From positions 1 to 32,000 of the forward strand of contig JACJQJ010000063.1 of assembly GCA_014696615.1 (NCBI GenBank): a DNA stretch of 32,000 bases, written 5' to 3'. Positions 56 to 19,408 of the stretch are shown piece by piece (within the stretch, counting starts at the first letter, position 1; every line of letters begins with the position of its first letter). The notes beneath the pieces are model-generated. The model searched no databases. It was not told where the DNA came from and was given only the letters and a program-made list of their open reading frames with translations. Made by a program: the position numbers and the translations under genes. This DNA comes from Nostoc linckia FACHB-104. GTDB taxonomy: Bacteria; Cyanobacteriota; Cyanobacteriia; Cyanobacteriales; Nostocaceae.

Positions 56-311
56 AATCAAACGGGTGTGAGAATTAGCCGTTGGTTGGCATGGTAAATT
101 TTACAGTGAGAATTTTGTGATAACTGTGTAATTTTTTTTGGTAACTCTTTGTGAGTTATCTTACAAGCTATTGGTAATAAAGGTTCAATTATTTACGTTA
201 ATATCTATTGCTTATTATTAATTAATTTTAGTCAGAGATTATACCTGCCTTTAGATAGATGCTCTTTAAGAAGATAAAGTTTTAAACCATTACATTAGTT
301 GGGTTTTACTC

Positions 312-851
312 GTGACTAAAGATAGTATTCCTAAATCTAAAATTCCTGAAGCTCTTTCTGCTTTACGCTCTTTGGGTGCTAAGGAATTGGATGAGATTCC
401 AGCACGCGCAGCTATTAAAAAGATGCGTCGTCAAATTGAACGGGTGCTTCGTCTTGGCTATTCTTATCAGGAAGTTTCTGAAACTTTGGCAGGCTTGGAT
501 ATCAATATCAGTGCTGAACGTATCCGTTATTTACTTAACGATATTAAGAAGTCTACTCGCAAAAAGTCTGTCACTTCTACAATTGGTGAGAATCCCAATA
601 CACAAGTTGTTGATGAATCTGACCGGGGTGAAAATTCTGTAACTGAGTCTAGTGATTCTCAGTCGGCTACAAAATCTCAAGTTAAATCACAACCACAATC
701 AAAATCTAAAACTGCATCTGCCAAGGCTAAATCAAATTTAACTACGACTCCTAAAAATACTAAACAAAGAGATGAGTTGAAAGTTAGTTCAAACCGAAAT
801 AATTCTGGGTTGGCTTTTCAACCTGAATTGATTAGAGATGAGGATTTGTAA
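312..851 (+). CDS. Hypothetical protein, possible DNA-binding partner of the downstream ParA-like ATPase
   Basis: 179-aa ORF with a GTG start and no clear SD, so the start is uncertain. Its TAA stop abuts the ATG of the next gene. The N-terminal part is basic and helical (IPARAAIKKMRRQIERVLRLGYSYQEVSETL), followed by an S/T/K/Q-rich tail. The function is inferred from position only. Confidence 0.5.
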   Translation: MTKDSIPKSKIPEALSALRSLGAKELDEIPARAAIKKMRRQIERVLRLGYSYQEVSETLAGLDINISAERIRYLLNDIKKSTRKKSVTSTIGENPNTQVVDESDRGENSVTESSDSQSATKSQVKSQPQSKSKTASAKAKSNLTTTPKNTKQRDELKVSSNRNNSGLAFQPELIRDEDL

Positions 852-1631
852 ATGGCAGTTAAATCAAAGCTTCCTGCTGATGGAGTTACTCAAGAAAAAC
901 CAAGTACTCCACTAAAATCTATTGGGCGTTTGGTGTTGGTGACTGGTGATAAAGGAGGGACTGGTAAAAGTGTGGTGGCAAGGATTCTCCTTGATATTTA
1001 CCGTCACAGAAATATCAACTGCATTGCTTATGAGTGTGACAAGTCGAATCCGCAGCTTTATCGTCACTACAATAAGTTAGAACCTGGGGTGCGAACACTC
1101 AAACTAAATCAGCGTGGTGGTGCTGATGCTTTGCAGGATGATTTGAAGTGTTTTTCTCCTCAAGTTTCACTTGTTGATTTGCCGGCTGGGGCTGCGGAAT
1201 ATTTTGAGTCGGTGGCTAAGGATATTTTTTTGTTTCAAAATGCCCAGCGTTTGGGTTATCGCATCACTATGGTGTCGGTTTTGGGTCGGGTGAAGGATAG
1301 TCTGTTGCAGTTAAAGCGGTTGATGGATTTCTGCGGCGACAAGGTTGATTATGTGGTGGTGAAAAATCTTTACTGGGGTGATGAGCATAAGTTTACTCGC
1401 TACAACAATTCTAAGGTGAAGCAGTCTGTTGAAGCTCTGGGGGCGGTGGAACTGTTATTGCCTGAGTTATATGACGATATTTTTGATTTGATTGACTCGA
1501 AGGATTTGACTTTTAGGGAAGCGCTGGAACATGAGGATTTCAGTTTGAGTAATCAATCTCGTATTTACGGCTGGATTGATGCGGTTGAAACTGAGTTCTC
1601 TAAGGCGGCTTTCGAGTTGGGGTTAGAGTAA
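852..1631 (+). CDS. ParA/MinD-superfamily P-loop ATPase (TraL/MobD-like)
   Basis: Deviant Walker A VTGDKGGTGKS near the N-terminus and a hydrophobic strand plus Asp (VSLVDLPAG). The 259-aa size is typical, and the gene is tightly packed with both neighbours. Confidence 0.8.
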   Translation: MAVKSKLPADGVTQEKPSTPLKSIGRLVLVTGDKGGTGKSVVARILLDIYRHRNINCIAYECDKSNPQLYRHYNKLEPGVRTLKLNQRGGADALQDDLKCFSPQVSLVDLPAGAAEYFESVAKDIFLFQNAQRLGYRITMVSVLGRVKDSLLQLKRLMDFCGDKVDYVVVKNLYWGDEHKFTRYNNSKVKQSVEALGAVELLLPELYDDIFDLIDSKDLTFREALEHEDFSLSNQSRIYGWIDAVETEFSKAAFELGLE

Positions 1632-2377
1632 TGGCGATCGCAAATGGTAAAGGTAATGGGGGAGTCTCCCATTTAGATAGGTTGCTGTCAGAAAAATCAC
1701 CGGAATTTCAAGCGAAAGTGCTGCGGTTTGCGTTGGATTCTGGGATGAAGCAGGATGACCCAGCATTTAGATTGGTGCAGTACATCGGGTATTTGGCACA
1801 GCTGACAGAAACTGCACCAAATGATTGGAAGTTATTGTTTGAAAATTTACAGGTGGAGTTAAATCAATGGAGTCAACTGACGGCGGAGCAATTGAAGACT
1901 CAAGCCGACCACACGGAGAATATCAAATCTTTAGCGACCAGTTGCAATCAGCTCGCGACAGCCTTGAGCGCTTTAAATGCAACGTCACAGCAACAACTAG
2001 AGCTATTGAAGAACTTAACCAATCTCTCCAATTATTGGAGCAATACCGGGAACATCCACACAGAGAAGTTGATTGCACCATTGAGAGAGGAATTGAAGCA
2101 GATGAAGAATATGATATCGAGCCATCAATTGAGCCACAGCGCCGCCGTGGATTTGGCCGCTAAAAATTGGGTGAGGGCTGCTTTTGTTTCGCTTTTCACT
2201 CCGATTACGTTTTTTATTCTGTTTACGATTTATTCACGCTTTTTTCCTCTGAGTCTGCCTTATGAGGCTCAAACTTCTTTGGAGAAGATTGAACAGCAGA
2301 CTGGTTGGACTAATACTAAGCTGAAACGGGTTGAGAGAAATTTGGGGACTGATCCTAATCAAGGGCGACGGCGGTAA
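1631..2377 (+). CDS. Hypothetical coiled-coil protein with C-terminal membrane segment
   Basis: TAATG stop/start overlap with the ParA-like gene. The centre is Q/L/E-rich and helical, with the hydrophobic stretch AAFVSLFTPITFFILFTIY near the C-terminus. Confidence 0.6.
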   Translation: MAIANGKGNGGVSHLDRLLSEKSPEFQAKVLRFALDSGMKQDDPAFRLVQYIGYLAQLTETAPNDWKLLFENLQVELNQWSQLTAEQLKTQADHTENIKSLATSCNQLATALSALNATSQQQLELLKNLTNLSNYWSNTGNIHTEKLIAPLREELKQMKNMISSHQLSHSAAVDLAAKNWVRAAFVSLFTPITFFILFTIYSRFFPLSLPYEAQTSLEKIEQQTGWTNTKLKRVERNLGTDPNQGRRR

Positions 2378-2380
2378 AAG

Positions 2381-2415
2381 CACAGTTGTTTACTAGCCAA
2401 TTTTTAACAACTGTG
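2381..2415 (+). terminator. Hairpin after the par-like operon (10-bp stem, 15-nt loop)
   Basis: cacagttgtt (2381-2390) pairs with aacaactgtg (2406-2415), starting 4 nt after the stop codon. No clear T-tract follows. Confidence 0.3.
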
Positions 2416-2569
2416 TCTGCATTACACGTTGTAGCCTAATCCTGTAATGTTGCATGAATTATGAGCCTAAACAATAAGCTAAAAAGAGATTTCTTCCATT
2501 AATTGCGTAATTGAGAACAGAAACAATATATTAATAGTAAAATCGGATGCCGCGCTTAAGAGGTAGTAG

Positions 2570-2992
2570 ATGGAGCCATTAACTGCTGGTGCGATCGCTT
2601 TCACAACTTGGGTAGTGGGTAAAATCATTGACTGGTCAACAGACAAAACCTTCGATATAGCTTCAGAAAGGCTGATGCAACTCCTGAAGCAGAGATTGCC
2701 AGATACAGCCAAAGCCTTAACGTTGGCTAAGGAAAACGCCGTCTTACCACCAGGCGAAAGAGAAGATATTGGTGAAGCTGTTTTGGTAGAAGAAGTGAAA
2801 AAGGCAGCAGCCACAGACCCAGAAATTAAAGCAGCAGTAGAAGCTTTAGGAAATGATATCAATCAAGCTGTAGCGGAGAATCCCGAAGTAGAAAAGCGGT
2901 TAACAACTGTGATTGAAAATTGGCAAGGAATAAATATTAAAGGCGGAAAGCCAACTATCAAGAACAACACCCTTATGTTTGGCAGCAAATGA
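2570..2992 (+). CDS. Small Bell/HeLo-like candidate effector with a C-terminal motif shared with the adjacent NLR
   Basis: GAGG Shine-Dalgarno upstream. N-terminal hydrophobic helix AGAIAFTTWVVGKII, then a helical region of about 90 aa. The C-terminal ENWQGINIKGGKPTIKNNTLMFG is repeated at the N-terminus of the next protein. ATGA stop/start overlap at 2989-2992. Confidence 0.65.
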   Translation: MEPLTAGAIAFTTWVVGKIIDWSTDKTFDIASERLMQLLKQRLPDTAKALTLAKENAVLPPGEREDIGEAVLVEEVKKAAATDPEIKAAVEALGNDINQAVAENPEVEKRLTTVIENWQGINIKGGKPTIKNNTLMFGSK

Positions 2993-5424
2993 CTAGCGAA
3001 AATTGGCAAGGGATAAATATCAAAGGCGGAAAGCCGATTATCAAGAACAATACATTCATCTTTGAGCCGCTTAAACAAAATCCCCCAAATAATATTCTAT
3101 ATTACGGTTCAGATAACTTTGTTGGTAGGGAGTCTGAACTCAGCCAACTAGATGAAAAGTTAAAAAAACCAGAGATAGTAGCAATTTCGGCTGTCTCTGG
3201 GATGGGTGGAGTTGGCAAAACCGAATTAGCAGTCAGATATGCACGTCAACATGAAGCCGATTATCCTGGTGGAATTTGTTGGTTAAATGCTAGAGACTCA
3301 AATTTAGCTGCGGAGATTGTGCATTTTGCCCAGTTCCGAATGGGATTAGAAGTGCCACACGAAGTAGGAGGAAGACCACTCAATCACATACAACAAGTAG
3401 AGTGGTGTTGGCAGAATTGGCAACCACTATCGGGATTGGTATTGGTCATCTTAGATGATGTTACTGACTTAAGGAGTTGTCGAGAATTACTACCAAAGGC
3501 TAATCGCTTTCGTATTTTGATAACAACAAGGTTACTACGACTAGACACTAATTTTACTGAAATATCATTGGGTACCTTGTCATCAGAAGAAGCTTTGAAA
3601 CTTTTGAGTGGTGTTTTGGGTGATGAAGACAGACGAGTACAACGAGAACCGCAAGCTGCTCAAGAGTTATGTCGATGGTTGGGTTTTCTGCCTTTAGGGT
3701 TGGAGTTGGTAAGTAAATATTTGGGTGAAGATCCTGATTTATCTTTAGAAAAGTTGTTACAACGGTTGAAAGCACAGAAATTAGAAGAAGAAGCTATCAA
3801 CCCTTCAGAGGAACAACTACAAGCAACTGAGATGACTGCTAAACGAGGAGTTTTAGCAGCGTTTGAATTAAGCTGGAAAGAACTGAACCCAATGACACAA
3901 CGTGTAGGTCAGTTGTTGAGCTTATTTGCACTGGATGTAATTCCTTGGAAACTTGTAGAGGTTGTTACTCAACATTTATATTGGGCAAACGTAGAAGTGG
4001 ACTCTGCAAAAAAGCATTTTTACAAGCGCCACTTTATTCAAAGACTGGTAGAAAAAGAAAACTGTTATAAAATTCATCCTTTGATTCGTGAGTTTTTGCA
4101 AACAAAGTTAACAGAATCGCAGGAGCAGAATGAGCTTAAAAAGTTCTTTACCAAAGCATTCGCAGAAATTACACAGGAAATTCCTGAGTCACTAAATCGT
4201 AATTTAATTGAGTCAATTAAAGATACTATTCCCCACTTAATAGAAATCGCCAGAAATTTAAACTCTGCATTAAGTAACGAAGACTTAAGTTGGATTTTTG
4301 TAGGGTTAACTAGATTCTATGAAAGCCAAGGATTTTATAAAGATGCTCAAAACTGGTGTGAGCAGCGCTTATCAATATCTAAACAACGCCTTGGAGAAGA
4401 ACATACAGATATAGCAGACTGCTATAATAGTTTAAGCTTAGTTTGTTATTTTCAAGGCTCTTTTAAAGAAGCTGAACAATATTCTAAAGAAGCATTGAGA
4501 ATTAGACAAAAATTATTAGATAAAAATCATCTTGACCTGTCTCAAAGTTTACACAACTTAGGTACAATCTGTTATCATAAAAATTCTTATTTTGAAGCTG
4601 AATCTTTATTTAAACAAGCTCTAAAAATTAGGATTAAACATTTTATACAAAAAGGTAATTTTTCTCTTATAAACTTAGATTATTTACAGTCTTTCTTAGA
4701 TGAAGGTATAAACAGTGCAAGTTTAAATGTACAATCGTCATTTATATTAGAAACTTTTAATTTTAAAGGTTTATTTCTTAATAGAAGATACTCTATTATT
4801 GATTATTTTCTAAGTAGCTTTGATTCTGACAGTAATAATCAAGATAATTTAATATTGTATCTAGCTGAAAGTTTAAACAACTTAGCTGCAATAAATCGTT
4901 TTCATCAACGCTTAATAGATTCAGAAATATTATTAATACAATCTTTAAAACTACGAGTTTACTTTTTTAAAAATTTTCATATATCAGTAGTTGAAGCTCT
5001 TAACAATTTAGCTGGTATTTATCAAATACAAGGCTACTATGTACAAGCAGAAAACTTACTAACACAAGTATTAAAAATGAGAAGAAAATTTTTTAGGAAG
5101 GGACACCCATTTGTCCTTGAAAGTATGAATAACTTAGCTGATATCTATCAGAAACAAGGAAGACATAGAGAAGCTGAATGTCTATTTAAAAAAGCATTAG
5201 ACTTAGGGTTAAGAGAAAATCCACAAAACCAAGCTAAATTAACTTTAGCTTATATTCAAAATAACTTAGCTGTAATTTATGCTAAAGAAGAAGAATATCA
5301 AAAAGCGTATGAGCTAATAACTCAAGCGTTAGAAGTTTTTAAAAAAATTTTAGGAGAAACTCATCCTACTACGCTATCTACTTACTCAAGCTTTAATACA
5401 ATACAGCGCTTTCGTGGTGCGTGA
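2989..5424 (+). CDS. NB-ARC (STAND) NTPase with C-terminal TPR array (bacterial NLR-like)
   Basis: P-loop GMGGVGKTELA, Walker B LVLVILDDV, ILITTR, and a GLPL-like LGFLPLGLELV. Kinesin-light-chain-type TPRs follow (NSLSLVCYFQGSFKEAEQYSKEALRIRQK, LNNLADIYQKQGRHREAECLFKKAL). The N-terminal ENWQGINIKGGKPIIKNNTFIF motif precedes the NTPase domain. Confidence 0.9.
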   Translation: MTSENWQGINIKGGKPIIKNNTFIFEPLKQNPPNNILYYGSDNFVGRESELSQLDEKLKKPEIVAISAVSGMGGVGKTELAVRYARQHEADYPGGICWLNARDSNLAAEIVHFAQFRMGLEVPHEVGGRPLNHIQQVEWCWQNWQPLSGLVLVILDDVTDLRSCRELLPKANRFRILITTRLLRLDTNFTEISLGTLSSEEALKLLSGVLGDEDRRVQREPQAAQELCRWLGFLPLGLELVSKYLGEDPDLSLEKLLQRLKAQKLEEEAINPSEEQLQATEMTAKRGVLAAFELSWKELNPMTQRVGQLLSLFALDVIPWKLVEVVTQHLYWANVEVDSAKKHFYKRHFIQRLVEKENCYKIHPLIREFLQTKLTESQEQNELKKFFTKAFAEITQEIPESLNRNLIESIKDTIPHLIEIARNLNSALSNEDLSWIFVGLTRFYESQGFYKDAQNWCEQRLSISKQRLGEEHTDIADCYNSLSLVCYFQGSFKEAEQYSKEALRIRQKLLDKNHLDLSQSLHNLGTICYHKNSYFEAESLFKQALKIRIKHFIQKGNFSLINLDYLQSFLDEGINSASLNVQSSFILETFNFKGLFLNRRYSIIDYFLSSFDSDSNNQDNLILYLAESLNNLAAINRFHQRLIDSEILLIQSLKLRVYFFKNFHISVVEALNNLAGIYQIQGYYVQAENLLTQVLKMRRKFFRKGHPFVLESMNNLADIYQKQGRHREAECLFKKALDLGLRENPQNQAKLTLAYIQNNLAVIYAKEEEYQKAYELITQALEVFKKILGETHPTTLSTYSSFNTIQRFRGA

Positions 5425-5477
5425 GGTACATTAGTAGGGGCGAACGCCGTTCGCCCTTGGACTATTGGTGTACCTCA
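5422..5477. repeat. Nested GC-rich hairpin (REP-like palindromic element) overlapping the NLR stop codon
   Basis: Outer arms tgaggtaca (5422-5430) and tgtacctca (5469-5477). Inner hairpin GGGCGAA-cgccg-TTCGCCC (5438-5456). Confidence 0.5.
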
Positions 5478-5523
5478 TGTGTCTCAAAACTGCTGTATTT
5501 TTAAAATTTAAATCTGGTCAATA

Positions 5524-5553
5524 AACCACTTGAAAGTCAATTTTCAAGTGGTT
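5524..5553. terminator. Bidirectional terminator-like hairpin between convergent genes
   Basis: aaccacttgaaa (5524-5535) pairs with tttcaagtggtt (5542-5553): a 12-bp stem, 6-nt loop and A/T-rich flanks. It lies between the + strand NLR gene and the - strand 573-aa gene. Confidence 0.5.
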
Positions 5554-5627
5554 CAATAAATACTAAATCAGCAGCTTAGTTATTAAAAGCGATTATGCTA
5601 ATCAACCTTAATAATATTATCTGCAAA

Positions 5628-7349
5628 TTATTGTGCCTTTAATCTTGCTTTTAAATCGCTCTCTAACTTGATTAACTCTTCCTTGTGAGATGGTGTTTTG
5701 GCTAATCTGACATAAGAGGAAAGCAAGCGCAGACGATCCGAGCGCCATTTAGGTTCTTTAAGCCCTACTAGATAAGCAAACCGTCCATATAACCACGCTG
5801 CATCTATAGATTTAGCAACATAATAATCATAAACCCCAAGTCTAGCTCTTGCTGTATTTGCTTCCCAATTTCGCAACTCTCTAGAAGGACAAGCAGATGG
5901 ATCTTTCACACATTTTGTCAAATAACTGTCAATTTGATCATAGGCTTCTGTTACAGCTACAGCTGTTAATACGGCCATACTATAACGTAGTGATTCTGCC
6001 CAAGATTTTTCTATTCCCTGACGGTTCAAGAGATCACTTAGAAACATTCCCATCTTTGCAACTTCAAGGCTGTCAACTGGGTATTCTTTTGAAAGTTTCA
6101 TAGCTTTAGCTAAACTCTGGTCAGCTTTTTTTAAGTTGTTAACTCCTCCTTCTTTGCCATAAATTACTGCTGCTGCTGCTTGTAAAAGAGCATCATCTGG
6201 AATGGATTGAGTTAAAAACTGCTTAGACGCTAATTGTATAGCTTGATTAGTTAATGAAGGTTTATACATCCCATTTTGTAAAGCATCATAAGCTGCTGCC
6301 CAAGCTTCAGGACTTTGACTTGGTTGAAAATCACGTAAATTAAGTTCTTGCCAACGTTTGTATAATTTTTGGGAGCCTTGAGGTTCTTTTTTTTGTGCCT
6401 GAGATACTCTTGACTCTAGTTTTATATACAGACTATTTAACTCAGGTTCTTCCTTAATGTCAGATTTAATTAAAAGATGTTGGCAACTATTTGGTTGCCG
6501 ACAAGCAGATCCTACAAGACCTAATACGGCTGTCACAGATGCTGCTCTATCTACAGCTGGCAAACTAGAGCGATATAAACTTGAGTTTTGCCTAACATCT
6601 TTTATCAAAGGTAAGTAAGGACGTTCTCCTATAGTTTGGTAACTAGAATTGACTTCTAAAGGATAACCACTCAAAGAACGAAATAAAACTTGAGAACCAA
6701 ACTCAAGTTTTACTAATCCTTCAGCTTGAGGATCAAAAGACATAAAGATTTGCGGCCAACTCAAGGGAGGTAATGCTTGCTGAGTTGGTAAAGCTTTGTA
6801 AGCTGTGTCAGTATTAAGTAAATTTAGAGCCTGTTCGTAAGGATGTATTGCACTGCCGGGTGGCATAGGCAAATAAGCTTGCACTAGCGCGGCAAATTCC
6901 AGATCGGCCGTTACTAACAGGTCTTGCAAGAAAGTAGTAGTTCGCAAAGCATTGCTTATGTATGTTTGCTGATCACCGTATGAAGTGGTTATAAAATTCC
7001 GATCAATAGACGTTTGGAAAACTAGGTCTTGATGTTTCTGTACTAATTCAACAGCTTCTTTGAGTTCAATAGAGCTAATTGGTACTTGCAAGCGCTTTCC
7101 TTGGAGATTTGCACTAAGATACCCATTGCTATAGGACAAATCTGAGGAGTTAAGTGGAAGCTTTGTCGTAATGTCTATTTGCAGTCCACCAATCGCTGTG
7201 CCTGGACTAGCTACTTCATCGCCTGCATACATAGAGTAAGCTATCCAGCGTACACTAAGATCACGAAGATTAGCGAGCGCTTTGTTGGAGAAAAATACTG
7301 CTACCAAGACGAAGACAGCTATCAAACGATAACTTGGAAAACGTCTCAT
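5628..7349 (-). CDS. Secreted hypothetical protein
   Basis: 573-aa ORF with an N-terminal signal-peptide-like MRRFPSYRLIAVFVLVAVFFSNKALA. I recognise no catalytic motif. Confidence 0.7.
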   Translation of the reverse strand: MRRFPSYRLIAVFVLVAVFFSNKALANLRDLSVRWIAYSMYAGDEVASPGTAIGGLQIDITTKLPLNSSDLSYSNGYLSANLQGKRLQVPISSIELKEAVELVQKHQDLVFQTSIDRNFITTSYGDQQTYISNALRTTTFLQDLLVTADLEFAALVQAYLPMPPGSAIHPYEQALNLLNTDTAYKALPTQQALPPLSWPQIFMSFDPQAEGLVKLEFGSQVLFRSLSGYPLEVNSSYQTIGERPYLPLIKDVRQNSSLYRSSLPAVDRAASVTAVLGLVGSACRQPNSCQHLLIKSDIKEEPELNSLYIKLESRVSQAQKKEPQGSQKLYKRWQELNLRDFQPSQSPEAWAAAYDALQNGMYKPSLTNQAIQLASKQFLTQSIPDDALLQAAAAVIYGKEGGVNNLKKADQSLAKAMKLSKEYPVDSLEVAKMGMFLSDLLNRQGIEKSWAESLRYSMAVLTAVAVTEAYDQIDSYLTKCVKDPSACPSRELRNWEANTARARLGVYDYYVAKSIDAAWLYGRFAYLVGLKEPKWRSDRLRLLSSYVRLAKTPSHKEELIKLESDLKARLKAQ

Positions 7350-7649
7350 TATTTAAGAATTTCCTTACTAGTGATTATACGTAAGTTTTGCACAAATTTA
7401 TCGCAGGTAAAAATGCAATGCGCCAAAGTACAAAGTGGCATATAAGTATTTTTATTTAGCCGTAGTTTTGAAGTTTTAATTTTTTGGTGGAGTTAAATTT
7501 TGTAAATCCTGTTTGATACTTAGATATATAGCTAAATCGAGAAAACTCTTTCTCTCTCTGGTGTGTGGGTTGCTTCGACAAACATAAGTTTCACGACATT
7601 TTACGGAACGGTGTTCTTCAGCTATTTTTGCGCTTCTTGTAAGGCACAT

Positions 7650-7860
7650 TTAGCAAATCAATCGCCCGTTTCTGGGACGCTTCCCCACGCCGATATACTT
7701 ACTTGTTGTACTTGGTGTCCTATGACCTGCAAGTTTCGCTACCGTGACGATATCTGCGCCAGCATCTAAATAGATTACCGATAAAAGTTCTTCTAAAATC
7801 ATAAGGTGTAAACGCATCCACATCAGCTTTCAGGTGACCGCCTTTAGGTACGACCGGGCA
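7650..7860 (-). pseudogene. Tyrosine recombinase C-terminal fragment, frameshifted
   Basis: The minus strand reads ..PVVPKGGHLKADVDAFTPYDFRRTFIGNL, then after a 1-nt frame change reads LDAGADIVTVAKLAGHRTPSTTSKY. These match the HxxR box and the catalytic Tyr box. Removing one T from the run (AAA on the + strand, 7768-7770) restores the frame. No N-terminal part is present. Confidence 0.55.
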
Positions 7861-7962
7861 ACAGCGATACGCAGTAATGGCTCTCAAAAACCTTTGAGAG
7901 TAAGGCTTTCATATCCAAAGTAAGTTAGGGCATTAAGACTGTTGCTTAATCCCGATTGTTCA

Positions 7963-10806
7963 TCAAATTCCCAACCAAGGCCGCAGATTAGCACGGCGAA
8001 CTTTCACCCCCGGCTGAGTCTTAGTCCCAATCCGAATATCATTCGATTGCCCACACTCCCAAACATAAACTAGTTCGCCATTATACTCAGCTAACGAATC
8101 TACACTCAGTCGCCACACACTATTAGCCGCATCCTTAATATGTTGCAGTTGATCATGATTAAACCCAGCAACAGCTTGACGTAATTCCTCAACCTTGAGC
8201 GATAGCACCAGCTGACCCAGTGACGACCTATCATCCCAGTTATTAATCATCTGCTGCGTCACAGATGGACTAGTGACGACCTTTTGCGCCTCATCGGTCG
8301 TCACGGTGACGACCTCTTGACGACCCAAAACACTTTCTGTTGTTGGATTTGCCTCCAGTGACGACCCATCCCCCTCATTCTGCTCCATAGGAGATAACAT
8401 CGAGATGCATTCGTTGCTCTCTTCTGTGATTTCATTAACCAAAAGGTCGTCACTTGTAAAAAATCCGTCACTACCAATACTTTCAGTCGTCACCCCTATT
8501 GTCATTTCAGTCTTCACTAGGTCGTCACTTTTTTGAATAAGGTCGTCACTAGTAGAAATCAGCAACGGGAAATTCTGCCCTGGCTTGCGGATACCAACAC
8601 AAGTAATAAACCTTCCCTTATTGGTTTTGCGCTTAATGGCATCAATCCCCAATTGCGCTTTTAGCAAATTCAGCAACGTACTAGAAAATCGTTGCTTATT
8701 CATCGTTCCTTGCCCGTTATTACTCGCCCATTGCGCGTAATTAGGATAAAGAAACTCTTCGGGATTTTGGCTAATATCACCAATACCCGTGATAGCCTTG
8801 GGGTCATAGTACAAACATTCATCAGCCCAATTCGCCAAAGGATTAGTCTCCATCAGGATTTCTTTGCTAAAAGCAGCCAGTGACGGCACTTTGCTATTTG
8901 TATCCACAAATAAATCCTGAACTTGGGCAAACGGCATTTCTAGCACCCAGGACAGCAAACCAGGCAGATAAGGCGTAAACTCCGCTATCAAGTCCCGGCG
9001 CTGATGGGGGGGAATTACATGATTAAACGGCATCGACAAGCGACGGCGAGCTGTAGCGTTAGTGTAATCCGTGCTTTGCATCGCTTCATTGGCAGCTACC
9101 ATCACCACACCATGAAATTTAAAACTGCCTGTTTGCTGTACTCCTTTCTTCTCATGTCGCAGGTCGTCATAGCCTGTAATAGCTTTAAACACACTGACAT
9201 CACCTGTGTAGCGTTCTGAATCAGTAATACAAATCAGCTTCTTGCCGTAAAAGGAAGCTGTCTCAAAGCGATTCTGTTCTAGTTGCTTGAGGGTGGTGAT
9301 AGCGTAGTTTTCTTTACCAACTAATTCCTGTACCAGTCTCAGAATTGTGCCTTTCCCAGTGCCGCCAGCGCCAATCAGCTCTAAATACCTTTGCATCTTG
9401 CCACCGCGTTCGGTAATGGTGGCGTTAATAGCAGCGCGAATTACCTCCACCCACAGATGTTGACCGTCACAAACTTCCAGTAGCCATTGCTGAATCGGGT
9501 CACAACCGACACTGCGGTCAGCCCATTTAAAGGGCAACTGTGTCAGCATTCGATAACCAGGGGCGTGGGGGTAGGTTTTCAGGGTATTGACATCCAGCAC
9601 ACAATCTTGTAAGCAGATAAAGCCGGGACAAACCTCCCAGTGGTTAATTCTTAAATCCCCCTTGAGAAGATTTAGGGTATTGGCGACAAAGCGATAGCTA
9701 AAATCTGGTCTGCGAGATCGCAATTCTGTGACGATAATATCTTGGGCTTCCTCATGGGGAATTTCACCCCAGACACCCAGCTTTTGTTCGGCTTCATACC
9801 AGTACCAAGCTTTATTGGCTACGTGCCAAGCTAGGCGATTGCGGTAATTTTCCGCGATAAATGCTGCAAAAGCTGATTCTGACAACATTTTGTTGTCAAT
9901 TTCGCTTTCGCGGAACTGACGTTCCCAAACTTCCAAGGAAACAGCCTTAGCTAACACTTTCTCGCGAAAAGCGTCGTCGCCGTTGGCTTGAATATAATCG
10001 TCCATTCCTTTCCCCTCAGCTGTACTCCAGTTGCCCGTGGCGATGTACACAGGCACTTTAAACTTAGCTAATTGGTGAGCTAGTTTTCTTTGGGCGGCAA
10101 TCACATTTTTGTTAGTAACAGCCCTATCGTCCGCGTCAAAGACAATAATCCATCCAAAATTAGCACGGGCTAGGAATTCTAGGGTATCGACTAGGTAACG
10201 TTTGCCTTGGGGGTCGTTTTTGGCTGGTGTTAAGCCCTGTTCCACACCAGGGAGGGCAACTGTGGGCAAGTTGTGAAAACAGCCGCAGATTGCCTTAAAC
10301 AGCCCTTCAGTGATCAGTAAGCAAGGATGACCGTTGATGTGATAGCAAAGGGCTTTAAGGGCTTCTAAATCCACCCAGTAGCGCGGATTGTGGGGATGAC
10401 GGGGTAGCATCGCGTCATATTCTTCTTTGGTGGCTGTGCGATACTTGGGGGCTTTTTTCTCGTCGGTGTTTTTCCAGGGCTTGTTAGGGCGGTACTGCCC
10501 AAAACCGTTGACCCCTTCTAGCCAGATGCCTGGTGATTGGGCTGTGTATCCTAAGCGCTGGGTCGCTTCTTTAATGTCCATTGAGCGACAGTTAGCAGCT
10601 ATCCATTCAGGGCATAAACCGCGTTTTGTTACACACTCTTTATAGTGTCTGTCTGAAAGTCTGTTAGCGGTCAGGGTTGCAGTTGTTGGTGTAGTATTCA
10701 CTTTTCTTACTCCAGATTTTTCAAAATCCGGGTAACTCCTTATTGCAACACGACCGCAGGACTGGTTATGATAGATATGCGATCGCGGTTCCGAAAAAGT
10801 CGCCAA
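7963..10806 (-). CDS. Replicative primase-helicase (Toprim/DUF3854-like N-terminus plus P4/D5-type SF3 NTPase)
   Basis: Toprim-like CLLITEG and IIVFDADD. Walker A LIGAGGTGKGT and Walker B LICITDSE. The C-terminal tail is acidic and low-complexity (SDDL / VVT repeats). Confidence 0.85.
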   Translation of the reverse strand: MATFSEPRSHIYHNQSCGRVAIRSYPDFEKSGVRKVNTTPTTATLTANRLSDRHYKECVTKRGLCPEWIAANCRSMDIKEATQRLGYTAQSPGIWLEGVNGFGQYRPNKPWKNTDEKKAPKYRTATKEEYDAMLPRHPHNPRYWVDLEALKALCYHINGHPCLLITEGLFKAICGCFHNLPTVALPGVEQGLTPAKNDPQGKRYLVDTLEFLARANFGWIIVFDADDRAVTNKNVIAAQRKLAHQLAKFKVPVYIATGNWSTAEGKGMDDYIQANGDDAFREKVLAKAVSLEVWERQFRESEIDNKMLSESAFAAFIAENYRNRLAWHVANKAWYWYEAEQKLGVWGEIPHEEAQDIIVTELRSRRPDFSYRFVANTLNLLKGDLRINHWEVCPGFICLQDCVLDVNTLKTYPHAPGYRMLTQLPFKWADRSVGCDPIQQWLLEVCDGQHLWVEVIRAAINATITERGGKMQRYLELIGAGGTGKGTILRLVQELVGKENYAITTLKQLEQNRFETASFYGKKLICITDSERYTGDVSVFKAITGYDDLRHEKKGVQQTGSFKFHGVVMVAANEAMQSTDYTNATARRRLSMPFNHVIPPHQRRDLIAEFTPYLPGLLSWVLEMPFAQVQDLFVDTNSKVPSLAAFSKEILMETNPLANWADECLYYDPKAITGIGDISQNPEEFLYPNYAQWASNNGQGTMNKQRFSSTLLNLLKAQLGIDAIKRKTNKGRFITCVGIRKPGQNFPLLISTSDDLIQKSDDLVKTEMTIGVTTESIGSDGFFTSDDLLVNEITEESNECISMLSPMEQNEGDGSSLEANPTTESVLGRQEVVTVTTDEAQKVVTSPSVTQQMINNWDDRSSLGQLVLSLKVEELRQAVAGFNHDQLQHIKDAANSVWRLSVDSLAEYNGELVYVWECGQSNDIRIGTKTQPGVKVRRANLRPWLGI
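8220..8549. repeat. Iteron-like array of the 9-mer GTGACGACC / GGTCGTCAC inside the 3' part of the primase-helicase gene
   Basis: Exact GTGACGACC at 8220, 8273, 8306 and 8358. Exact GGTCGTCAC at 8296, 8445, 8520 and 8541. One-mismatch copies at 8317 and 8485. A perfect 19-bp palindrome GGTCGTCACGGTGACGACC lies at 8296-8314. Confidence 0.8.
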
Positions 10807-15231: not shown

Positions 15232-16686
15232 ATGAAACAGGGGGTTTTGGAGTTAGCCCTGGCTAGTGTGTGTGGTGTGGCTGCAATCATCGGGCTTGCA
15301 ACATCACAAACACGCCAGCCCTACGATTTGACACAGATTCAGTTCTGCCCAAAGTCAATAAACGGCGTACAAAGTCAAATAAAGCTAGATAAGCGTTTTT
15401 GCAACCAGCCGCGCTTTGTCCTGGCTGAAGAATGGCGACGCTATGGGCTATATGGCAGCATGATTCCTTATAAGGGTGATGCCATTCAATGGGTGCGTGA
15501 TTTGCCCACAGACAACCCTAATCAGTTGTTGGGTGGTGCGCTTGGTGTTATGGGGCTATGGGGTATTGTCGGTTGCTTGCTTGTGCGTACACAACGCCTC
15601 AAGCGCAAGGATTATGAATTGGGAGAACTAGAAAAGACTGGCGGCTATGCAATTTGGCAGCAACACAAGCACAAACGTGAAGTTAAGCAGCATTCCACCC
15701 AGCTTTATACTGAGCGTTTAAAGGATGGGTTGTCAGGACTGGACACAGAGGAACGCAAAGCACTAGGACTGACTGATGAGGAGAACGAACGGGCTAAGGC
15801 TCGAATTCAGCTTGAGGATTTTCTAAAAGCTCGTGCTGTTAATCATTCTGTGATGGATAAGACGATTGCTGAGAATTTAAGGGACAGAGCGAAGGCGGAG
15901 CAGGAACGCAGCAAGATTGAGGGGAAGACCAAAGGCGCGATCGCAAATAGTGACAGCCATAATTTAACTGACCAGCGCCTCATCAGTGACTTAATCGAAG
16001 CGCTCAAGAATCATGAAGATGGCTGGCTGTGGAAGGTTATCGACAATCAAAAGCCCGTTTGGGTGTTAGGAGAAGCGGGAAGTGGTAAATCAACTCTAGC
16101 CGCGTCGATTGTCATGCTCAGAGAATATCTGTTTGATATGCCTTTGTATCAGCTCATAGATGCTCACGCCGGAGACAATTTAAGAAATGCATGGAAATAT
16201 TTAAGTCCTCAGTTGATAGCGCAAACAGAATCAGATATTGGACAAGCTTTTGATGATGCCCGCGAGCGTTGGTTAGACAGAATTAATAATCAACCTGATA
16301 AACAACCGCAACAGTTACTAGTTGATGAATTTACTAACTATTCTGAGTCAGATATCACCAAGGAGCCTGCGAAAAAGTTTGTTAAAGCGTCTCTTAGCGA
16401 CCCTAGAAAGGCAGAAGAAAGATTAGTTTGTATTGCCCATTTCTTCACTAATACTGCTGTTGGTGGCAGTGATGGAACTGCTAAAGGTAGAAGCAGAGGC
16501 ACTATTCAAATTGACCGCAAAACTGCTGATGGTAAAACACCTTTGAAAGTCGCAATAGTTAACGGTTTAAATAATTCAGAGGGGGACGCAGAAGTAGATA
16601 AAAAGGTGACAATTCCAAGTTGGTTGACTCCTGAAAATATTCACAAGCATTTTAACGGTCAGCCGATTGATTTTGATGATGTGTGA
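15232..16686 (+). CDS. Membrane-anchored P-loop NTPase of unknown function
   Basis: Two N-terminal hydrophobic segments, Walker A GEAGSGKST and Walker B-like QLLVDEF. The start is 3 nt after the previous stop. Confidence 0.7.
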   Translation: MKQGVLELALASVCGVAAIIGLATSQTRQPYDLTQIQFCPKSINGVQSQIKLDKRFCNQPRFVLAEEWRRYGLYGSMIPYKGDAIQWVRDLPTDNPNQLLGGALGVMGLWGIVGCLLVRTQRLKRKDYELGELEKTGGYAIWQQHKHKREVKQHSTQLYTERLKDGLSGLDTEERKALGLTDEENERAKARIQLEDFLKARAVNHSVMDKTIAENLRDRAKAEQERSKIEGKTKGAIANSDSHNLTDQRLISDLIEALKNHEDGWLWKVIDNQKPVWVLGEAGSGKSTLAASIVMLREYLFDMPLYQLIDAHAGDNLRNAWKYLSPQLIAQTESDIGQAFDDARERWLDRINNQPDKQPQQLLVDEFTNYSESDITKEPAKKFVKASLSDPRKAEERLVCIAHFFTNTAVGGSDGTAKGRSRGTIQIDRKTADGKTPLKVAIVNGLNNSEGDAEVDKKVTIPSWLTPENIHKHFNGQPIDFDDV

Positions 16687-17011: not shown

Positions 17012-19408
17012 ATGTTGCACCCAACCATGCCCCAGGACTTCTCCGGACAAAATCTTCGTGGGCGCTCCTTCAGGGGACAAAACCTTGAGGGAGCAAATTT
17101 TAGTTATGCAGATATCCGGGGTGCAGATTTTACCGGGGCGAATCTGAGAGGCGTAAGCTTCCGACACGCTAGAGCAGGACAAGAAATTCGGTGGTCTATA
17201 TGTATATTAATATCTTCATTAATTCTGGCATTACTATCGGGTATTGTTGCAGTAATTGCTGGTAGCAGTCTTTATCATATATTTGTGCTGCCTTTTACAT
17301 TTGTTGTCAATAAAAATTTCTGGTATTTTATTCGAGACTACATATTCATTATTAATTTAATAATATTAGGATTATTTAGTTTTCTATTTTTTCTGTTTAT
17401 CCGGAAAGGACTTGATATAGCTTTAAAAATTGTCACGTTTGTAGGAGCTATCGCTGGTGCAGGTATTGTAGTTATATTTGGCAATACGGCTACGGCTTTA
17501 AAGGGATTATTTAATTACTCGAATCTTTTTAAAAAAGAAGTTGAAAAAGCAGGAGTGCAAATTCCAATTCAAGATAGCATTGTCATAACTGAAGAAACTC
17601 AAAAAGCTCTACAAGTTATTCAAGAGCGTATTCAGGGGGAATTTATCGAGGCTACTAAACCATTAGCTGTAGCTTGGTTTGGATTTATAGCTTTGCTAGT
17701 GTTTGTATCTGTTGCTGGAGTTATAGTTGGAACATTTTCTTTAACCGCAGCTATAGCTGTGGCTGTCAATATAACTGAGGCTTTCACTATTGTCGCAGTT
17801 GGGATTTCCATTCCGTTTGTGATTATTGCAGTAGAAACTGAGAAAATCAACAGGATTTTACTTGACATAACAATGGGGCCTATACTGCAAGAATCTGTTA
17901 GTTACTTGGTAACTTTGAGTTCCAATGCTTGGATATTACTTGGTATTTATCTTAGTTGGCGCTCTTTATCTGGATACAAAAATTTTATTTTGATTCAGAA
18001 ATTTTCTATCGCTATTGCAACAATAGGTGGTACAAACTTTCACAGAGCTAACTTAGTAGATGCTGATTTTACTTATGCAGTGCTTAAAAACACAAATTTT
18101 ACAGCAGCTAATGTAACTCGTACATGCTGGTTAAATACTAAAAAACTAGACCTGGCTCGTGTTGATCAAACTTATCTTGACAATTCACAAGTACGGAAGT
18201 TACTGATTACAGGTGAAGGACAAGGCAAAAGTTTTGACTATCTATTTCTGCGAGGTATTTATTTGCGTGGAGTAAATTTAGCGGAAGCTAGTTTCATAGG
18301 TGCTGATTTAAGTGAAGCTAGCTTGCAGGATGCGAATTTATCCAGAGTTAAACTAAAACAGACGCAATTAGATGGAACTGACTTTACAGGTGCTTGTCTT
18401 ACCGGAGCCTACATAGAAGATTGGGGCATTACCAGTGATACCAATTTTGATGGCGTAAGGTGTGAGTACGTTTATATGCACCTACCCACCAAAGAGAATC
18501 CTGACCCTCTCCGCAAACCAGATAACAATAAAGAAGTTTTTTCAGATGGGGAGTTTGGTGATTTTATCAAGCCAATTGTTGACACACTTGACCTCTACCA
18601 TAACCAAGGTGTTGACCCGCGTGCTATTGCAATTTCCTTTAAGGAGTTAGCAGAGAATCACCCTGATGCAGAGCTTGAAATTGTAGCAATGGAGAAACGA
18701 GGTGAAGATAAGTTTTTACTTCGTGCTAAAACCGCAGCTACGGCTAATAAGTCCCAACTGAGTGCAGAATATTTTGAAATTTATAATCAACTCAAGTCAT
18801 TAGCCGAACAAGAATTAAAAGCATTGATAGCAGAAAAAGATAGCAGAATTCGTAGTTTAGAAACTATGGTCATGACGGCGCTAGAGCGTCCCAGCTTTTA
18901 TTCAAATATTCAAGTAGAAGAGGTAGGTACTATGACAAATAACCCCGGTGGTTTTTCAATTGGTGGTTCAGTTGGCGGCAACGTCAACAACGTTCAAGGT
19001 GACAACAACCGCGCAGTGCAAGGGGACAATAATCAGGCTGTGCTTGGAGACAATAATCAAGTTACACAACAAAATCAAGTGGGTGCAGATAGTTCTGAAT
19101 CGCTCACAAAAGAAGATGTAGTTAAATTACTAGCTCAACTAGAAACTTTGATTAAAGGGGCAGAAATACCAGCCGATACCAAAGAAGAAATAGTAGAAGA
19201 TTTGAGTGCTGCCAAAAAAGCCACAGACAAAGAAGAACCAAATAAGCAACGAGCATTAGACCGTTTGGGAACTGTGGCAGAAACACTTGAAAAAACTAGT
19301 AAGACTGTAGAATCCGGTCATAAAATCTGGGCAACAGCCAAGCCGATTATTATGAAAGTTGCAGCTTGGTTGGGTGCGGCAGCAGGTTCTCACCTTTTGG
19401 GATTGTAA
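17012..19408 (+). CDS. Multipass membrane protein with N-terminal and central pentapeptide repeats and a C-terminal Asn/Gly/Gln octad-repeat motif
   Basis: Pentapeptide repeats (NLRGRSFRGQNLEGANFSYADIRGADFTGANLRGVSF, then NLAEASFIGADLSEASLQDANLSRVKLKQTQLDGTDFTGACL). A hydrophobic region of about 280 aa sits between them. A coiled-coil segment follows, then NVQGDNNRAVQGDNNQAVLGDNNQV. Confidence 0.85.
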   Translation: MLHPTMPQDFSGQNLRGRSFRGQNLEGANFSYADIRGADFTGANLRGVSFRHARAGQEIRWSICILISSLILALLSGIVAVIAGSSLYHIFVLPFTFVVNKNFWYFIRDYIFIINLIILGLFSFLFFLFIRKGLDIALKIVTFVGAIAGAGIVVIFGNTATALKGLFNYSNLFKKEVEKAGVQIPIQDSIVITEETQKALQVIQERIQGEFIEATKPLAVAWFGFIALLVFVSVAGVIVGTFSLTAAIAVAVNITEAFTIVAVGISIPFVIIAVETEKINRILLDITMGPILQESVSYLVTLSSNAWILLGIYLSWRSLSGYKNFILIQKFSIAIATIGGTNFHRANLVDADFTYAVLKNTNFTAANVTRTCWLNTKKLDLARVDQTYLDNSQVRKLLITGEGQGKSFDYLFLRGIYLRGVNLAEASFIGADLSEASLQDANLSRVKLKQTQLDGTDFTGACLTGAYIEDWGITSDTNFDGVRCEYVYMHLPTKENPDPLRKPDNNKEVFSDGEFGDFIKPIVDTLDLYHNQGVDPRAIAISFKELAENHPDAELEIVAMEKRGEDKFLLRAKTAATANKSQLSAEYFEIYNQLKSLAEQELKALIAEKDSRIRSLETMVMTALERPSFYSNIQVEEVGTMTNNPGGFSIGGSVGGNVNNVQGDNNRAVQGDNNQAVLGDNNQVTQQNQVGADSSESLTKEDVVKLLAQLETLIKGAEIPADTKEEIVEDLSAAKKATDKEEPNKQRALDRLGTVAETLEKTSKTVESGHKIWATAKPIIMKVAAWLGAAAGSHLLGL

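What the first reader, a model, noticed from the sequence alone, without database searches (positions are those of the whole stretch)
2570..5424. Small Bell-like protein plus NB-ARC-TPR NLR sharing a terminal motif: candidate amyloid-signalling (BASS-type) pair
The 140-aa protein ends in ENWQGINIKGGKPTIKNNTLMFG. The adjacent NB-ARC-TPR protein begins with ENWQGINIKGGKPIIKNNTFIFE, giving 19 of 23 identical residues. The genes are translationally coupled by an ATGA overlap. This is the architecture described for bacterial amyloid signalling sequences: an NLR N-terminal motif templates the same motif on a membrane-targeting Bell/HeLo-like effector encoded next door. The small protein has an N-terminal hydrophobic helix (AGAIAFTTWVVGKII), consistent with a membrane-attacking executioner. 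Whether this motif belongs to a known BASS family cannot be decided by eye, and few such pairs have experimental data.
Basis: partly seen in the sequence, partly recalled or inferred. Interest (0 to 1): 0.75.

Follow-up and report, generated by a model that had tools for sequence, protein, structure and literature searches.

The report
Plasmid-borne BASS7 Bell/NLR gene pair
Two overlapping genes on a Nostoc-type plasmid encode a small helical protein and an NB-ARC/TPR receptor sharing a 23-residue motif that matches the published BASS7 amyloid-signalling family, so this is a new example of a known, though experimentally untested, cell-death signalling system.

Summary
ORFs 2570-2992 (140 aa) and 2989-5424 (811 aa) overlap by ATGA. 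They share a 23-residue motif, 19/23 aa and 58/69 nt identical, far beyond chance (z=18).

The motif is not new. It is BASS7 of Dyrka et al. 2020: their Table S2 lists a near-identical Nostoc pair (OYE01691.1/OYE01692.1). Two homologues of the small protein (AKG20974.1, OUL32057.1) are published Bell/BASS7 proteins.

The large protein is an intact NB-ARC + TPR NLR. The small one is predicted all-helical, with an MEP-hydrophobic N-terminal helix and a disordered motif tail. The paired motif recurs in 18 of 34 related loci, and the two copies co-vary within pairs.

HeLo/Bell fold similarity could not be shown: Foldseek and hhalign were negative. Amyloid behaviour of BASS7 is untested. The pair sits in a variable cargo slot of a ~35-39 kb mobilizable Nostocales plasmid family.

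Verdict: a new member of a known kind, of modest interest.

A side finding may be new. In 11 related loci the Bell gene ends in TGA followed in frame by the NLR. There is no second motif and usually no start codon. A covarying hairpin lies 8 nt downstream, suggesting programmed readthrough.

The parts
2570..2992 (+). Gene for the 140-aa Bell-type effector carrying a C-terminal BASS7 motif
   Evidence: ORF. 146 cyanobacterial homologues, including the published Bell/BASS7 proteins AKG20974.1 and OUL32057.1. AF2 model with pLDDT 75.6 and pTM 0.71, six helices over residues 3-117.
2576..2629 (+). N-terminal MEP... hydrophobic helix (residues 3-20), the candidate membrane-inserting helix
   Evidence: Most hydrophobic window of the protein. 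Predicted helix 3-15. M1, P3, T5, G7, A8 and A10 are conserved in >=90% of 66 homologues. This matches the acidic-residue-at-position-2/3 plus hydrophobic-helix signature described for Bell/HeLo/Bab.
2915..2983 (+). BASS7 motif copy 1 (Bell C-terminus, ENWQGINIKGGKPTIKNNTLMFG)
   Evidence: Matches bass_07 entries of Dyrka 2020 Table S2. pLDDT <50 in the monomer model. N+Q+G make up 39% of the motif against 11% of the helical domain.
2989..2992 (+). ATGA stop/start overlap (translational coupling)
2989..5424 (+). Gene for the 811-aa NB-ARC/TPR NLR-type receptor
2998..3066 (+). BASS7 motif copy 2 (NLR N-terminus, ENWQGINIKGGKPIIKNNTFIFE)
   Evidence: The same position is occupied by the motif in 17 other related intact NLRs, with the P-loop 67-82 aa downstream.
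3130..3804 (+). NB-ARC NTPase domain (residues 48-272), with P-loop GMGGVGKT at residue 71, Walker B LVILDDV at 152 and ILITTR at 176
   Evidence: Pfam PF00931, E 5.9e-11. Motif scan.
4276..5367 (+). TPR sensor region (residues ~430-793), including an AT-rich divergent stretch
   Evidence: TPR_12 E 5.9e-53 and TPR_10 E 3.3e-44. Identity to the NLRs of the closest pairs falls to 15-41% here. GC is 24-25% at 4489-5089.
5400..5499 (.). Imperfect 38-nt inverted repeat spanning the NLR stop codon; a possible terminator shared with the convergent gene 5628-7349(-)
   Evidence: I1, 71% complementary. Weak evidence only; the terminator scan found no canonical site here.

Best explanation
This is a two-gene, NLR-controlled cell-death module of the published BASS7 class, carried as cargo on a mobilizable Nostocales plasmid.

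Shown here: the genes are co-oriented and overlap by ATGA. The receptor has an intact NB-ARC NTPase and TPR repeats. Both proteins carry the same 23-residue N/Q/G-rich motif, at the effector's C-terminus and the receptor's N-terminus. The arrangement is conserved and the two copies co-vary across related loci.

Inferred by analogy with HET-S/NWD2 in fungi and Bab/Agp (BASS11) in E. coli: the TPR domain binds an unknown cue, such as a phage or foreign-element product. The NB-ARC domain then oligomerises, which brings the N-terminal BASS7 motifs together so that they adopt a cross-beta fold. That nucleus templates the otherwise disordered BASS7 tail of the Bell protein. Refolding releases the N-terminal MEP-hydrophobic helix from the helical bundle, and the helix inserts into the membrane and kills the cell. 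In a filamentous cyanobacterium this would be altruistic, defensive death.
For: Motif and overlap are verified and far beyond chance. The motif equals published bass_07 instances. Homologues P0066 and P0028 are the published Bell/BASS7 proteins AKG20974.1 and OUL32057.1.

NB-ARC and TPR domains are present with intact P-loop and Walker B. The AF2 model gives a confident helical bundle with a disordered motif tail. The MEP + hydrophobic helix 1 is conserved and matches the signature described for Bell, Hell and Bab.

18 of 34 related loci, counting the window, have an intact NB-ARC ORF that begins with its own motif copy, and 3 more have the copy but a disrupted NLR. Cognate motif copies are more alike than non-cognate ones: 14.3 against 12.8 of 20 positions, and none of 20,000 permutations reached the observed value. 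Synonymous differences between the two copies argue for selection on the peptide rather than a very recent duplication.

Sequence identity falls along the NLR: motif 92%, NB-ARC 63%, TPR 15-41%. The Bell protein meanwhile stays 92-94% identical. This fits a conserved effector paired with a diversifying sensor. Amyloid templating leading to membrane-targeted death has been demonstrated for an analogous bacterial pair, Bab/Agp.
Against: No experiment on BASS7 appears in the papers read; only BASS1, BASS3 and BASS11 were tested.

The helical domain has no Pfam, NCBIfam or PADLOC hit. It has no significant sequence match in the PDB and no Foldseek match with E<1.9 in PDB or BFVD. Profile-profile comparison with actinobacterial BASS1 Bell proteins is not significant, probability <3%. 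The 'executioner fold' therefore rests only on the short N-terminal signature and on the published family assignment.

The trigger sensed by the TPR domain is unknown. No phage-related context was seen next to the pair.
Confidence: 0.75

Rival explanations
1. The shared motif is a non-amyloid homotypic adaptor. It lets the Bell protein dock stoichiometrically on the NLR, for example by beta-strand augmentation, much as death-fold or effector-associated domains do. No prion-like templating or amplification is involved.
For: Nothing computed here tests the cross-beta state. The motif is simply disordered in the monomer model. Co-variation within pairs is expected of any direct interaction. Another adjacent gene pair in the same window shares a different repeat motif next to an iSTAND protein, which shows that short shared adaptors are common on this plasmid.
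Against: Composition (39% N/Q/G with alternating hydrophobics), length (~23-25 aa) and position match the BASS/fungal amyloid motif class. All tested members of that class formed fibrils and prions.
Confidence: 0.12
2. The small protein is not a membrane executioner. Instead it is a regulator or inhibitor of the NLR, or an unrelated membrane-associated factor, and the NLR signals through something else.
For: There is no detectable fold or profile similarity to HeLo, MLKL, Rx-CC or actinobacterial Bell domains. The N-terminal segment is only moderately hydrophobic, KD 1.54.
Against: The NLR has no effector domain of its own; only the motif lies N-terminal to NB-ARC. The MEP-hydrophobic N-terminus is the most conserved part of the family and corresponds to the region whose mutation abolishes killing by Bab and Avast2. 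The same helical domain is found with several different C-terminal motifs, as expected of an effector module.
Confidence: 0.08
3. The repeat is a neutral by-product of a recent local duplication or gene conversion and has no signalling role.
For: The two copies are only 83 nt apart and 84-87% identical at DNA level.
Against: The same paired arrangement occurs in 17 further related loci whose Bell proteins are only 43-94% identical and whose intergenic distances range from overlap to about 240 nt. The published BASS7 pairs add further cases. Five of the nine codon differences between the copies are synonymous. The two sides keep side-specific residues across genera: NLR side ...KDNTFIF, Bell side ...NNT[LF]NFG[SK]K.
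Confidence: 0.02

Closest known systems
BASS7 Bell/NLR pairs of Dyrka et al. 2020, e.g. [quoted passage not shown] 336/3 AKG20974.1/AKG24489.1
   Same: Same motif family, with near-identical sequence. Same ~140-aa helical protein: 94% identity to the copy in locus L018, which is that Nostoc genome. Same NB-ARC/TPR partner, same order, same 4-nt overlap, and a filamentous cyanobacterial host.
   Different: The window's exact proteins are not on record. The NLR is only 47-48% identical overall to those of the closest pairs, with a divergent AT-rich TPR region. Here the pair is cargo on a small mobilizable plasmid backbone.
Bab/Agp (BASS11) abortive-infection system of E. coli ECOR25 (Ibarlosa et al. 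2024, bioRxiv 10.1101/2024.11.07.622273)
   Same: A small helical protein with a conserved hydrophobic N-terminal helix and a C-terminal amyloid motif. It is encoded next to a large TPR-containing sensor that carries the same motif at its N-terminus. This is the only bacterial case read here with demonstrated amyloid signalling, membrane relocalisation and antiphage function.
   Different: The motif differs (BASS11, not BASS7). The effector domain is shorter (~80 aa 'Babybell'). The sensor is TPR-GreA/B-C-PIN, not an NB-ARC NLR. No sequence or fold match was found here.
HET-S/NWD2 and HELLP/PNT1 amyloid signalling of filamentous fungi
   Same: The logic is the same. An NLR N-terminal motif templates the C-terminal motif of a membrane-targeting helical effector encoded by the adjacent gene.
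   Different: These are eukaryotic, with unrelated motif sequences (HRAM/PP). The effector is HeLo/Hell, to which no similarity could be detected here.
Actinobacterial BASS1 Bell/NLR pairs (e.g. Streptomyces coelicolor CAB66307.1/CAB66306.1)
   Same: Same architecture, and a similar N-terminus: MDPI.LAAGTAL against MEPLTAGAIAF.
   Different: The motif differs. hhalign of the two helical-domain profiles is not significant, probability 0.3-2.8%.

Membership tests
BASS7 motif family (Dyrka et al. 2020) | Motif sequence matches the family (ENWQGINIKGG-x-x-I-x-x-NT-[FL]-x-F) | tested here: met
   Direct comparison with the bass_07 rows of Table S2. The Bell-side 26-mer differs at 2 of 26 positions from that of OYE01691.1.
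BASS7 motif family (Dyrka et al. 2020) | The motif occurs both at the C-terminus of a Bell-domain protein and at the N-terminus of an NB-ARC/NACHT protein encoded within 5 kb, usually co-linear | tested here: met
   Copies at 2915-2983 and 2998-3066, same strand, ATGA overlap.
BASS7 motif family (Dyrka et al. 2020) | Restricted to (mostly filamentous) cyanobacteria | tested here: met
   All named homologues are Nostocales or other cyanobacteria. The plasmid backbone matches Tolypothrix, Calothrix and Nostoc plasmids.
BASS7 motif family (Dyrka et al. 2020) | Forms amyloid fibrils or prions, and the NLR-side motif converts the Bell-side motif | not testable with these tools
   Needs peptide fibrillation and seeding assays. 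The papers read report these only for BASS1, BASS3 and BASS11.
Bell domain | Roughly 100-aa all-alpha domain in a 120-140-aa protein, predicted as a helical bundle | tested here: met
   The AF2 model has helices at 3-15, 26-42, 44-57, 69-82, 84-103 and 105-117, with pTM 0.71. That is six helices against the 'five-helix bundle' of the paper, which itself notes variable topology.
Bell domain | N-terminal hydrophobic helix with an acidic residue at position 2 or 3 | tested here: met
   The N-terminus is MEPLTAGAIAFTTWVVGKII. E2 is present, the KD maximum falls at residues 6-20, and the residues are conserved in the family.
Bell domain | Sequence homology to proteins classified as Bell | tested here: met
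   phmmer E 8e-23 to AKG20974.1 and 1.3e-32 to OUL32057.1, both in the published Bell set.
Bell domain | Detectable homology to the founding actinobacterial Bell proteins | tested here: inconclusive
   hhalign of the trimmed cyanobacterial profile against the BASS1-Bell profile gave probability 0.3% (global) and 2.8% (local). Both profiles have low diversity, Neff about 2.3-2.7.
Bell domain | Fold relationship to HeLo / Babybell / MLKL / CC executioner domains | tested here: not met
   Foldseek against the PDB found no match with E<2; the Rx-CC domain 4m70_A scored E 7.0 and TM 0.18. The profile search against PDB sequences hit only designed coiled coils. The source paper itself says topologies vary widely, so this weakens the claim of fold membership but not the claim that it works like such a domain.
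Bell domain | Membrane-targeting, cell-killing activity | not testable with these tools
   Requires expression and localisation assays.
NLR-type STAND NTPase (NB-ARC + TPR) | NB-ARC domain above the Pfam gathering threshold, with P-loop and Walker B | tested here: met
   PF00931 scores 42.5 bits against a cutoff of 23.5. GMGGVGKT at residue 71, LVILDDV at 152, ILITTR at 176.
NLR-type STAND NTPase (NB-ARC + TPR) | C-terminal superstructure-forming repeats | tested here: met
   TPR_12 E 5.9e-53 and TPR_10 E 3.3e-44 over residues ~430-790.

The most novel reading that the evidence does not exclude
The window's two-gene, duplicated-motif pair may be one of two genetic ways to build the same signalling machine.

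In 11 of 34 related loci the Bell-BASS gene ends in TGA, always TGA and almost always TGA-C. One of these loci is L020 on the CENA369 contig, which shares this window's plasmid backbone and whose Bell is 80% identical. The NB-ARC ORF follows directly in the same frame. It has no second motif copy, and in 8 of 10 cases it has no in-frame ATG/GTG/TTG before the conserved FxGR segment. A 5-bp hairpin with compensatory changes lies 8 nt downstream of the TGA.

The reading not excluded by the evidence is programmed UGA readthrough. Termination would produce abundant free Bell-BASS effector. Rare readthrough would produce a Bell-BASS-NLR fusion that supplies the receptor-tethered motif. Under this reading the window's ATGA-overlap form, with its 67-nt repeat, is the 'split' derivative or ancestor of that single-ORF form.
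Probability: 0.4. Interest if true: 0.7.

Novelty: new member of a known kind. Interest (0 to 1): 0.35.

Why it matters
As it stands, the finding adds one plasmid-borne example to a small published class: BASS7 had 7 listed pairs. It shows that the module travels as cargo in a variable slot of mobilizable Nostocales plasmids, next to several other STAND/NLR-like genes.

BASS7 has no experimental data in the papers read. This pair is compact and well conserved, with 18 of the first 20 motif positions matching between partners (19/23 overall). That makes it a reasonable candidate for the first fibrillation, cross-seeding and toxicity tests of a cyanobacterial BASS.

The wider value lies in the relatives. 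If the in-frame TGA + hairpin form is a real recoding device, it would be a new way to set effector:receptor stoichiometry in a bacterial immune system. It would also explain why many Bell genes lie next to NLRs whose annotated N-termini lack any motif.

Tried and rejected
(1) Pfam, NCBIfam and PADLOC scans of the 140-aa protein found no family.

(2) A profile search of 66 homologues against PDB sequences hit only designed coiled coils, E 0.007-2.

(3) Foldseek of the AF2 model against PDB and BFVD found nothing below E 1.9.

(4) To test homology with the founding Bell family, I recovered actinobacterial BASS1 Bell genes by tblastn of the published 27-mer against plasmids. I then built a family from them and ran hhalign on motif-trimmed profiles. 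The result was not significant.

(6) An exact look-up of the window's protein found nothing on record.

(7) Megablast of the pair against plasmids found only a 176-nt promoter/5' remnant on pCC7120gamma.

(8) On the in-frame TGA relatives:
- Rfam, including its SECIS models, gave nothing at the junction.
- Single-sequence folding energies were no better than shuffles, z about 0. The hairpin therefore rests on covariation only.
- A search with an artificial Bell-W-NLR fusion, aimed at natural sense-codon fusions, returned NLRs with BASS9-type N-termini instead.
- I considered a -1-frame TTGA start followed by a frameshift. I rejected it because that frame is not consistently open, whereas frame 0 is.

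(9) Neutral duplication was rejected as an explanation of the window repeat (see rival explanations).
Full report
**1. The observation.** The window holds two co-oriented ORFs, 2570..2992 (140 aa) and 2989..5424 (811 aa). They overlap by ATGA. An AAGAGG ribosome-binding sequence precedes the first gene and none precedes the second, which fits translational coupling.

The small protein ends ...TTVIENWQGINIKGGKPTIKNNTLMFGSK. The large one begins MTSENWQGINIKGGKPIIKNNTFIFE. The 23-residue cores are 19/23 identical, and their coding DNA (2915-2983 and 2998-3066) is 58/69 identical. Of the 9 codons that differ, 5 differ synonymously. The repeat finder reports the same 67-nt direct repeat independently. 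The alignment score is 108, against 22 +/- 4.8 for 5000 shuffles.

**2. The two proteins.** The large protein has an NB-ARC domain at residues 48-272, above the Pfam threshold, and strong TPR_12/TPR_10 matches over residues ~430-790. Its P-loop GMGGVGKT, Walker B LVILDDV and ILITTR motifs are intact.

The small protein matches no Pfam, NCBIfam or PADLOC model. It does have 146 homologues, all cyanobacterial where named. In an alignment of 66 of them, the N-terminus (M1, P3, T5, G7, A8, A10) and a central GEAVL block are the most conserved parts.

AlphaFold2 on that alignment gives a confident helical bundle: pLDDT 75.6, pTM 0.71, six helices over residues 3-117. The last 20 residues, which are the motif, are disordered with pLDDT <50. 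The only hydrophobic stretch is residues 3-20.

**3. The motif is a known family.** Supplementary Table 2 of Dyrka et al. 2020 (bioRxiv 10.1101/2020.01.06.895854) lists this motif as bass_07, with seven pairs from Calothrix, Nostoc and Leptolyngbya. [quoted passage not shown] That genome's locus was recovered here as L018, and its Bell protein is 94% identical to the window's.

Two further homologues, P0066 and P0028, carry the accessions AKG20974.1 and OUL32057.1. Both are listed as Bell-side BASS7 proteins in that table. The paper describes BASS7 as cyanobacteria-specific. It reports experiments for BASS1 and BASS3 only.

**4. Conservation in related pairs.** Loci were fetched through exact-protein look-ups and a genome scan. 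Of 34 loci, counting the window, 18 have an intact downstream co-oriented ORF that starts with its own copy of the motif. The P-loop GMGG[VI]GKT follows 67-82 residues later. Three more loci have the second copy but a disrupted NLR frame.

Cognate copies share 14.3 of 20 positions, against 12.8 for non-cognate combinations; none of 20,000 permutations reached the observed value. This test ignores shared ancestry, so it is indicative only. The two sides also keep side-specific residues. The refutation criterion 'motif absent from orthologous pairs' is therefore not met.

Against the closest relatives the Bell protein is 92-94% identical. NLR identity falls from 92% in the motif to 63% in NB-ARC and 15-41% in the TPR region. 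That is the pattern expected of a conserved effector paired with a diversifying sensor.

**5. Is the helical domain Bell/HeLo-like?** Membership in the published Bell set follows from clear homology to listed members. It also follows from the N-terminal signature: an acidic residue at position 2 and a hydrophobic helix. This is the 'MEPIS' region that Ibarlosa et al. 2024 found conserved in Bell, Hell, Bab and some antiphage NLRs, and required for killing.

Independent tests failed, however. The PDB sequence-profile search found nothing relevant. Foldseek against PDB and BFVD found no hit below E 1.9. hhalign against a profile of actinobacterial BASS1 Bell proteins, recovered for this purpose, gave a probability below 3%. 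The 2024 paper itself states that Bell-type folds vary widely in topology. These negatives therefore lower the claim of fold homology, not the claim that the protein works like such a domain.

**6. Context.** The first ~11 kb of the window match a family of 35-39 kb MOBP-type mobilizable plasmids of Tolypothrix, Calothrix, Nostoc and Microchaete at 82-93% identity. The shared backbone includes ORF 312-851, a TraL/ParA-like gene (852-1631), a DUF6753 gene (1631-2377) and a DUF3854/P4-primase gene (7963-10806, minus strand).

The slot between the DUF6753 gene and the primase gene varies from plasmid to plasmid:
- CHAT + GUN4 + OmpA-like genes in Tolypothrix PCC 7910.
- A 2OG-Fe(II) oxygenase in Calothrix brevissima NIES-22.
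- The Bell/NLR pair plus an unassigned secreted 573-aa protein in this window.

The rest of the window is rich in STAND-type genes.

**7. Mechanism.** The architecture, the motif sharing, the intact NTPase and the conservation are shown. The rest is inferred from HET-S/NWD2 and from Bab/Agp: ligand binding by the TPR region, NB-ARC oligomerisation, amyloid nucleation by the clustered N-terminal motifs, templating of the Bell tail, release of helix 1, and membrane damage.

I give this 0.75. The main rival is a non-amyloid adaptor role for the motif (0.12). Then comes a non-executioner role for the small protein (0.08). Neutral duplication is essentially excluded.

**8. Side finding in relatives, not in the window.** Eleven of the 34 loci show a different junction: L020, L024, L027, L031, L039, L040, L043, L044, L045, L046 and L048. 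Their features are as follows.
- The Bell gene ends in TGA in all eleven. The well-separated class-A genes mostly use TAA.
- The NB-ARC ORF continues in the same frame: *LQ(S/P)PERERVK(L/S)NPP...F(V/I)GR...GMGGVGKT.
- There is no second motif copy.
- In 8 of 10 evaluable cases there is no in-frame ATG/GTG/TTG before the conserved FxGR segment.
- The DNA after the stop is nearly invariant, even at third codon positions: TGA CTA CAG YCG CCC GAA CGG GAA CGG GTA AAG.

A metagenome scan was run with the hairpin positions left free. It added 17 distinct junctions, with many different upstream C-terminal motifs.

On 27 distinct sequences, a 5-bp helix that begins 8 nt after the UGA is paired in 135 of 135 cells. 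Slid controls reach at most 42%. One pair is CG in 18 sequences, UA in 8 and UG in 1; another is GC in 26 and UA in 1. RNAalifold predicted the same helix on the genome-only set.

Three sequences carry a 1-nt insertion in the loop (L027, L061, L078). The frame is restored about 20 nt later. The peptide changes across that stretch while the nucleotides and the overall frame are kept.

Several caveats apply:
- Single-sequence energies are unremarkable.
- The compensatory changes may represent only about three independent events.
- L072 has a TAG as the second codon after the TGA.
- No natural sense-codon fusion was found.
- Rfam, including its SECIS models, gave no match.
- The BASS papers held in the library do not mention readthrough.

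The most economical reading is programmed UGA readthrough. It would produce abundant Bell-BASS and a rare Bell-BASS-NLR fusion. I rate it about 0.4 and have not proven it. L020 lies on a contig with the same plasmid backbone as the window, 78% DNA identity over window 133-2975, and the homology ends exactly at the end of the Bell motif. The two junction types have therefore interconverted recently.

**9. Verdict.** The system belongs to an already published class. It is a new member of a known kind, with interest of about 0.35. The in-frame TGA variant in its relatives is the part worth following up.

Noticed in passing
Related loci, e.g. L020:4406-4462, L039:4391-4447, L040:4490-4546, L027:4391-4447, L043:4463-4519; metagenome loci L049-L078: In 11 of 34 Bell loci the Bell-BASS gene ends in TGA (usually TGA-CTA) and the NB-ARC ORF follows in the same frame. 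There is no second motif, usually no start codon, and near-invariant DNA after the stop. A 5-bp hairpin lies 8 nt downstream of the TGA; it is paired in 135/135 cells and shows CG/UA/UG and GC/UA covariation. Loop indels are compensated so that the frame is kept. This is a candidate for programmed UGA readthrough yielding a Bell-BASS-NLR fusion. L072 has an extra TAG two codons after the TGA.
   Followed up: partly
window 18986-19114 and 19499-19639 (genes 17012-19408 and 19418-20551, + strand): A second adjacent gene pair shares a short motif. One partner is a 798-aa pentapeptide-repeat/transmembrane protein carrying NNVQGDNNRAVQGDNNQAVLGDNNQV. The other is the next gene, a 377-aa iSTAND protein (PF19995) that begins ...NVVQGNQNRVIQGNDNKAVLGNSNTV. 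The local score is 86 against shuffles of 35 +/- 6. Downstream come an AAA ATPase (20563-21576) and a 932-aa WD40 protein (21537-24335).
   Followed up: partly
window ~2380-7960: The Bell/NLR pair and a 573-aa signal-peptide protein with no family match (5628-7349, minus strand) occupy a variable cargo slot. The slot lies between the DUF6753 gene and the DUF3854/P4-primase gene of a 35-39 kb MOBP plasmid family. Sister plasmids carry CHAT+GUN4+OmpA-like genes or a 2OG-Fe(II) oxygenase in the same place.
   Followed up: partly
window 4489-5089 (NLR residues ~500-700): GC falls to 24-25% inside the TPR region, against about 40% elsewhere. Residues ~561-670 have only 15-24% identity to the NLRs of the closest pairs and look like degenerate or inserted repeats.
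   Followed up: no
A1 alignment; loci L024, L027, L031, L040, L043-L046, L048; proteins P0014, P0020, P0049, P0095: The same conserved Bell helical domain is joined to several unrelated C-terminal motifs, for example ...IEKVVNLAQGVKPSINIQNQTVNL and ...NNTGNVAVGGSVSIQAETFHQTF. The motif therefore appears to be a swappable module. L008/L020 carries two different Bell genes on one plasmid contig.
   Followed up: partly
L010:6001-6263 (Nostoc sp. PCC 7120 plasmid pCC7120gamma, NC_003267.1 21469-21731): The promoter region and first 9 codons of the window's Bell gene (window 2421-2596) match an unannotated stretch of pCC7120gamma at 88% identity. That stretch now encodes only a 37-aa ORF, MEPLTAGAIS..., and appears to be a truncated remnant.
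   Followed up: partly
window 21537-24335, 25929-29180 (-), 29661-31970 (-), 15232-16686: The window holds further NLR/STAND-like or conflict-type genes. One is a 932-aa WD40 protein with a (PGTNQ)x12 tandem peptide repeat. Another is a 1083-aa NACHT protein. A third is a 769-aa protein with PD-T4-6-like kinase and HEAT-repeat hits in PADLOC. The fourth is a 484-aa protein with a weak NACHT P-loop match.
   Followed up: no
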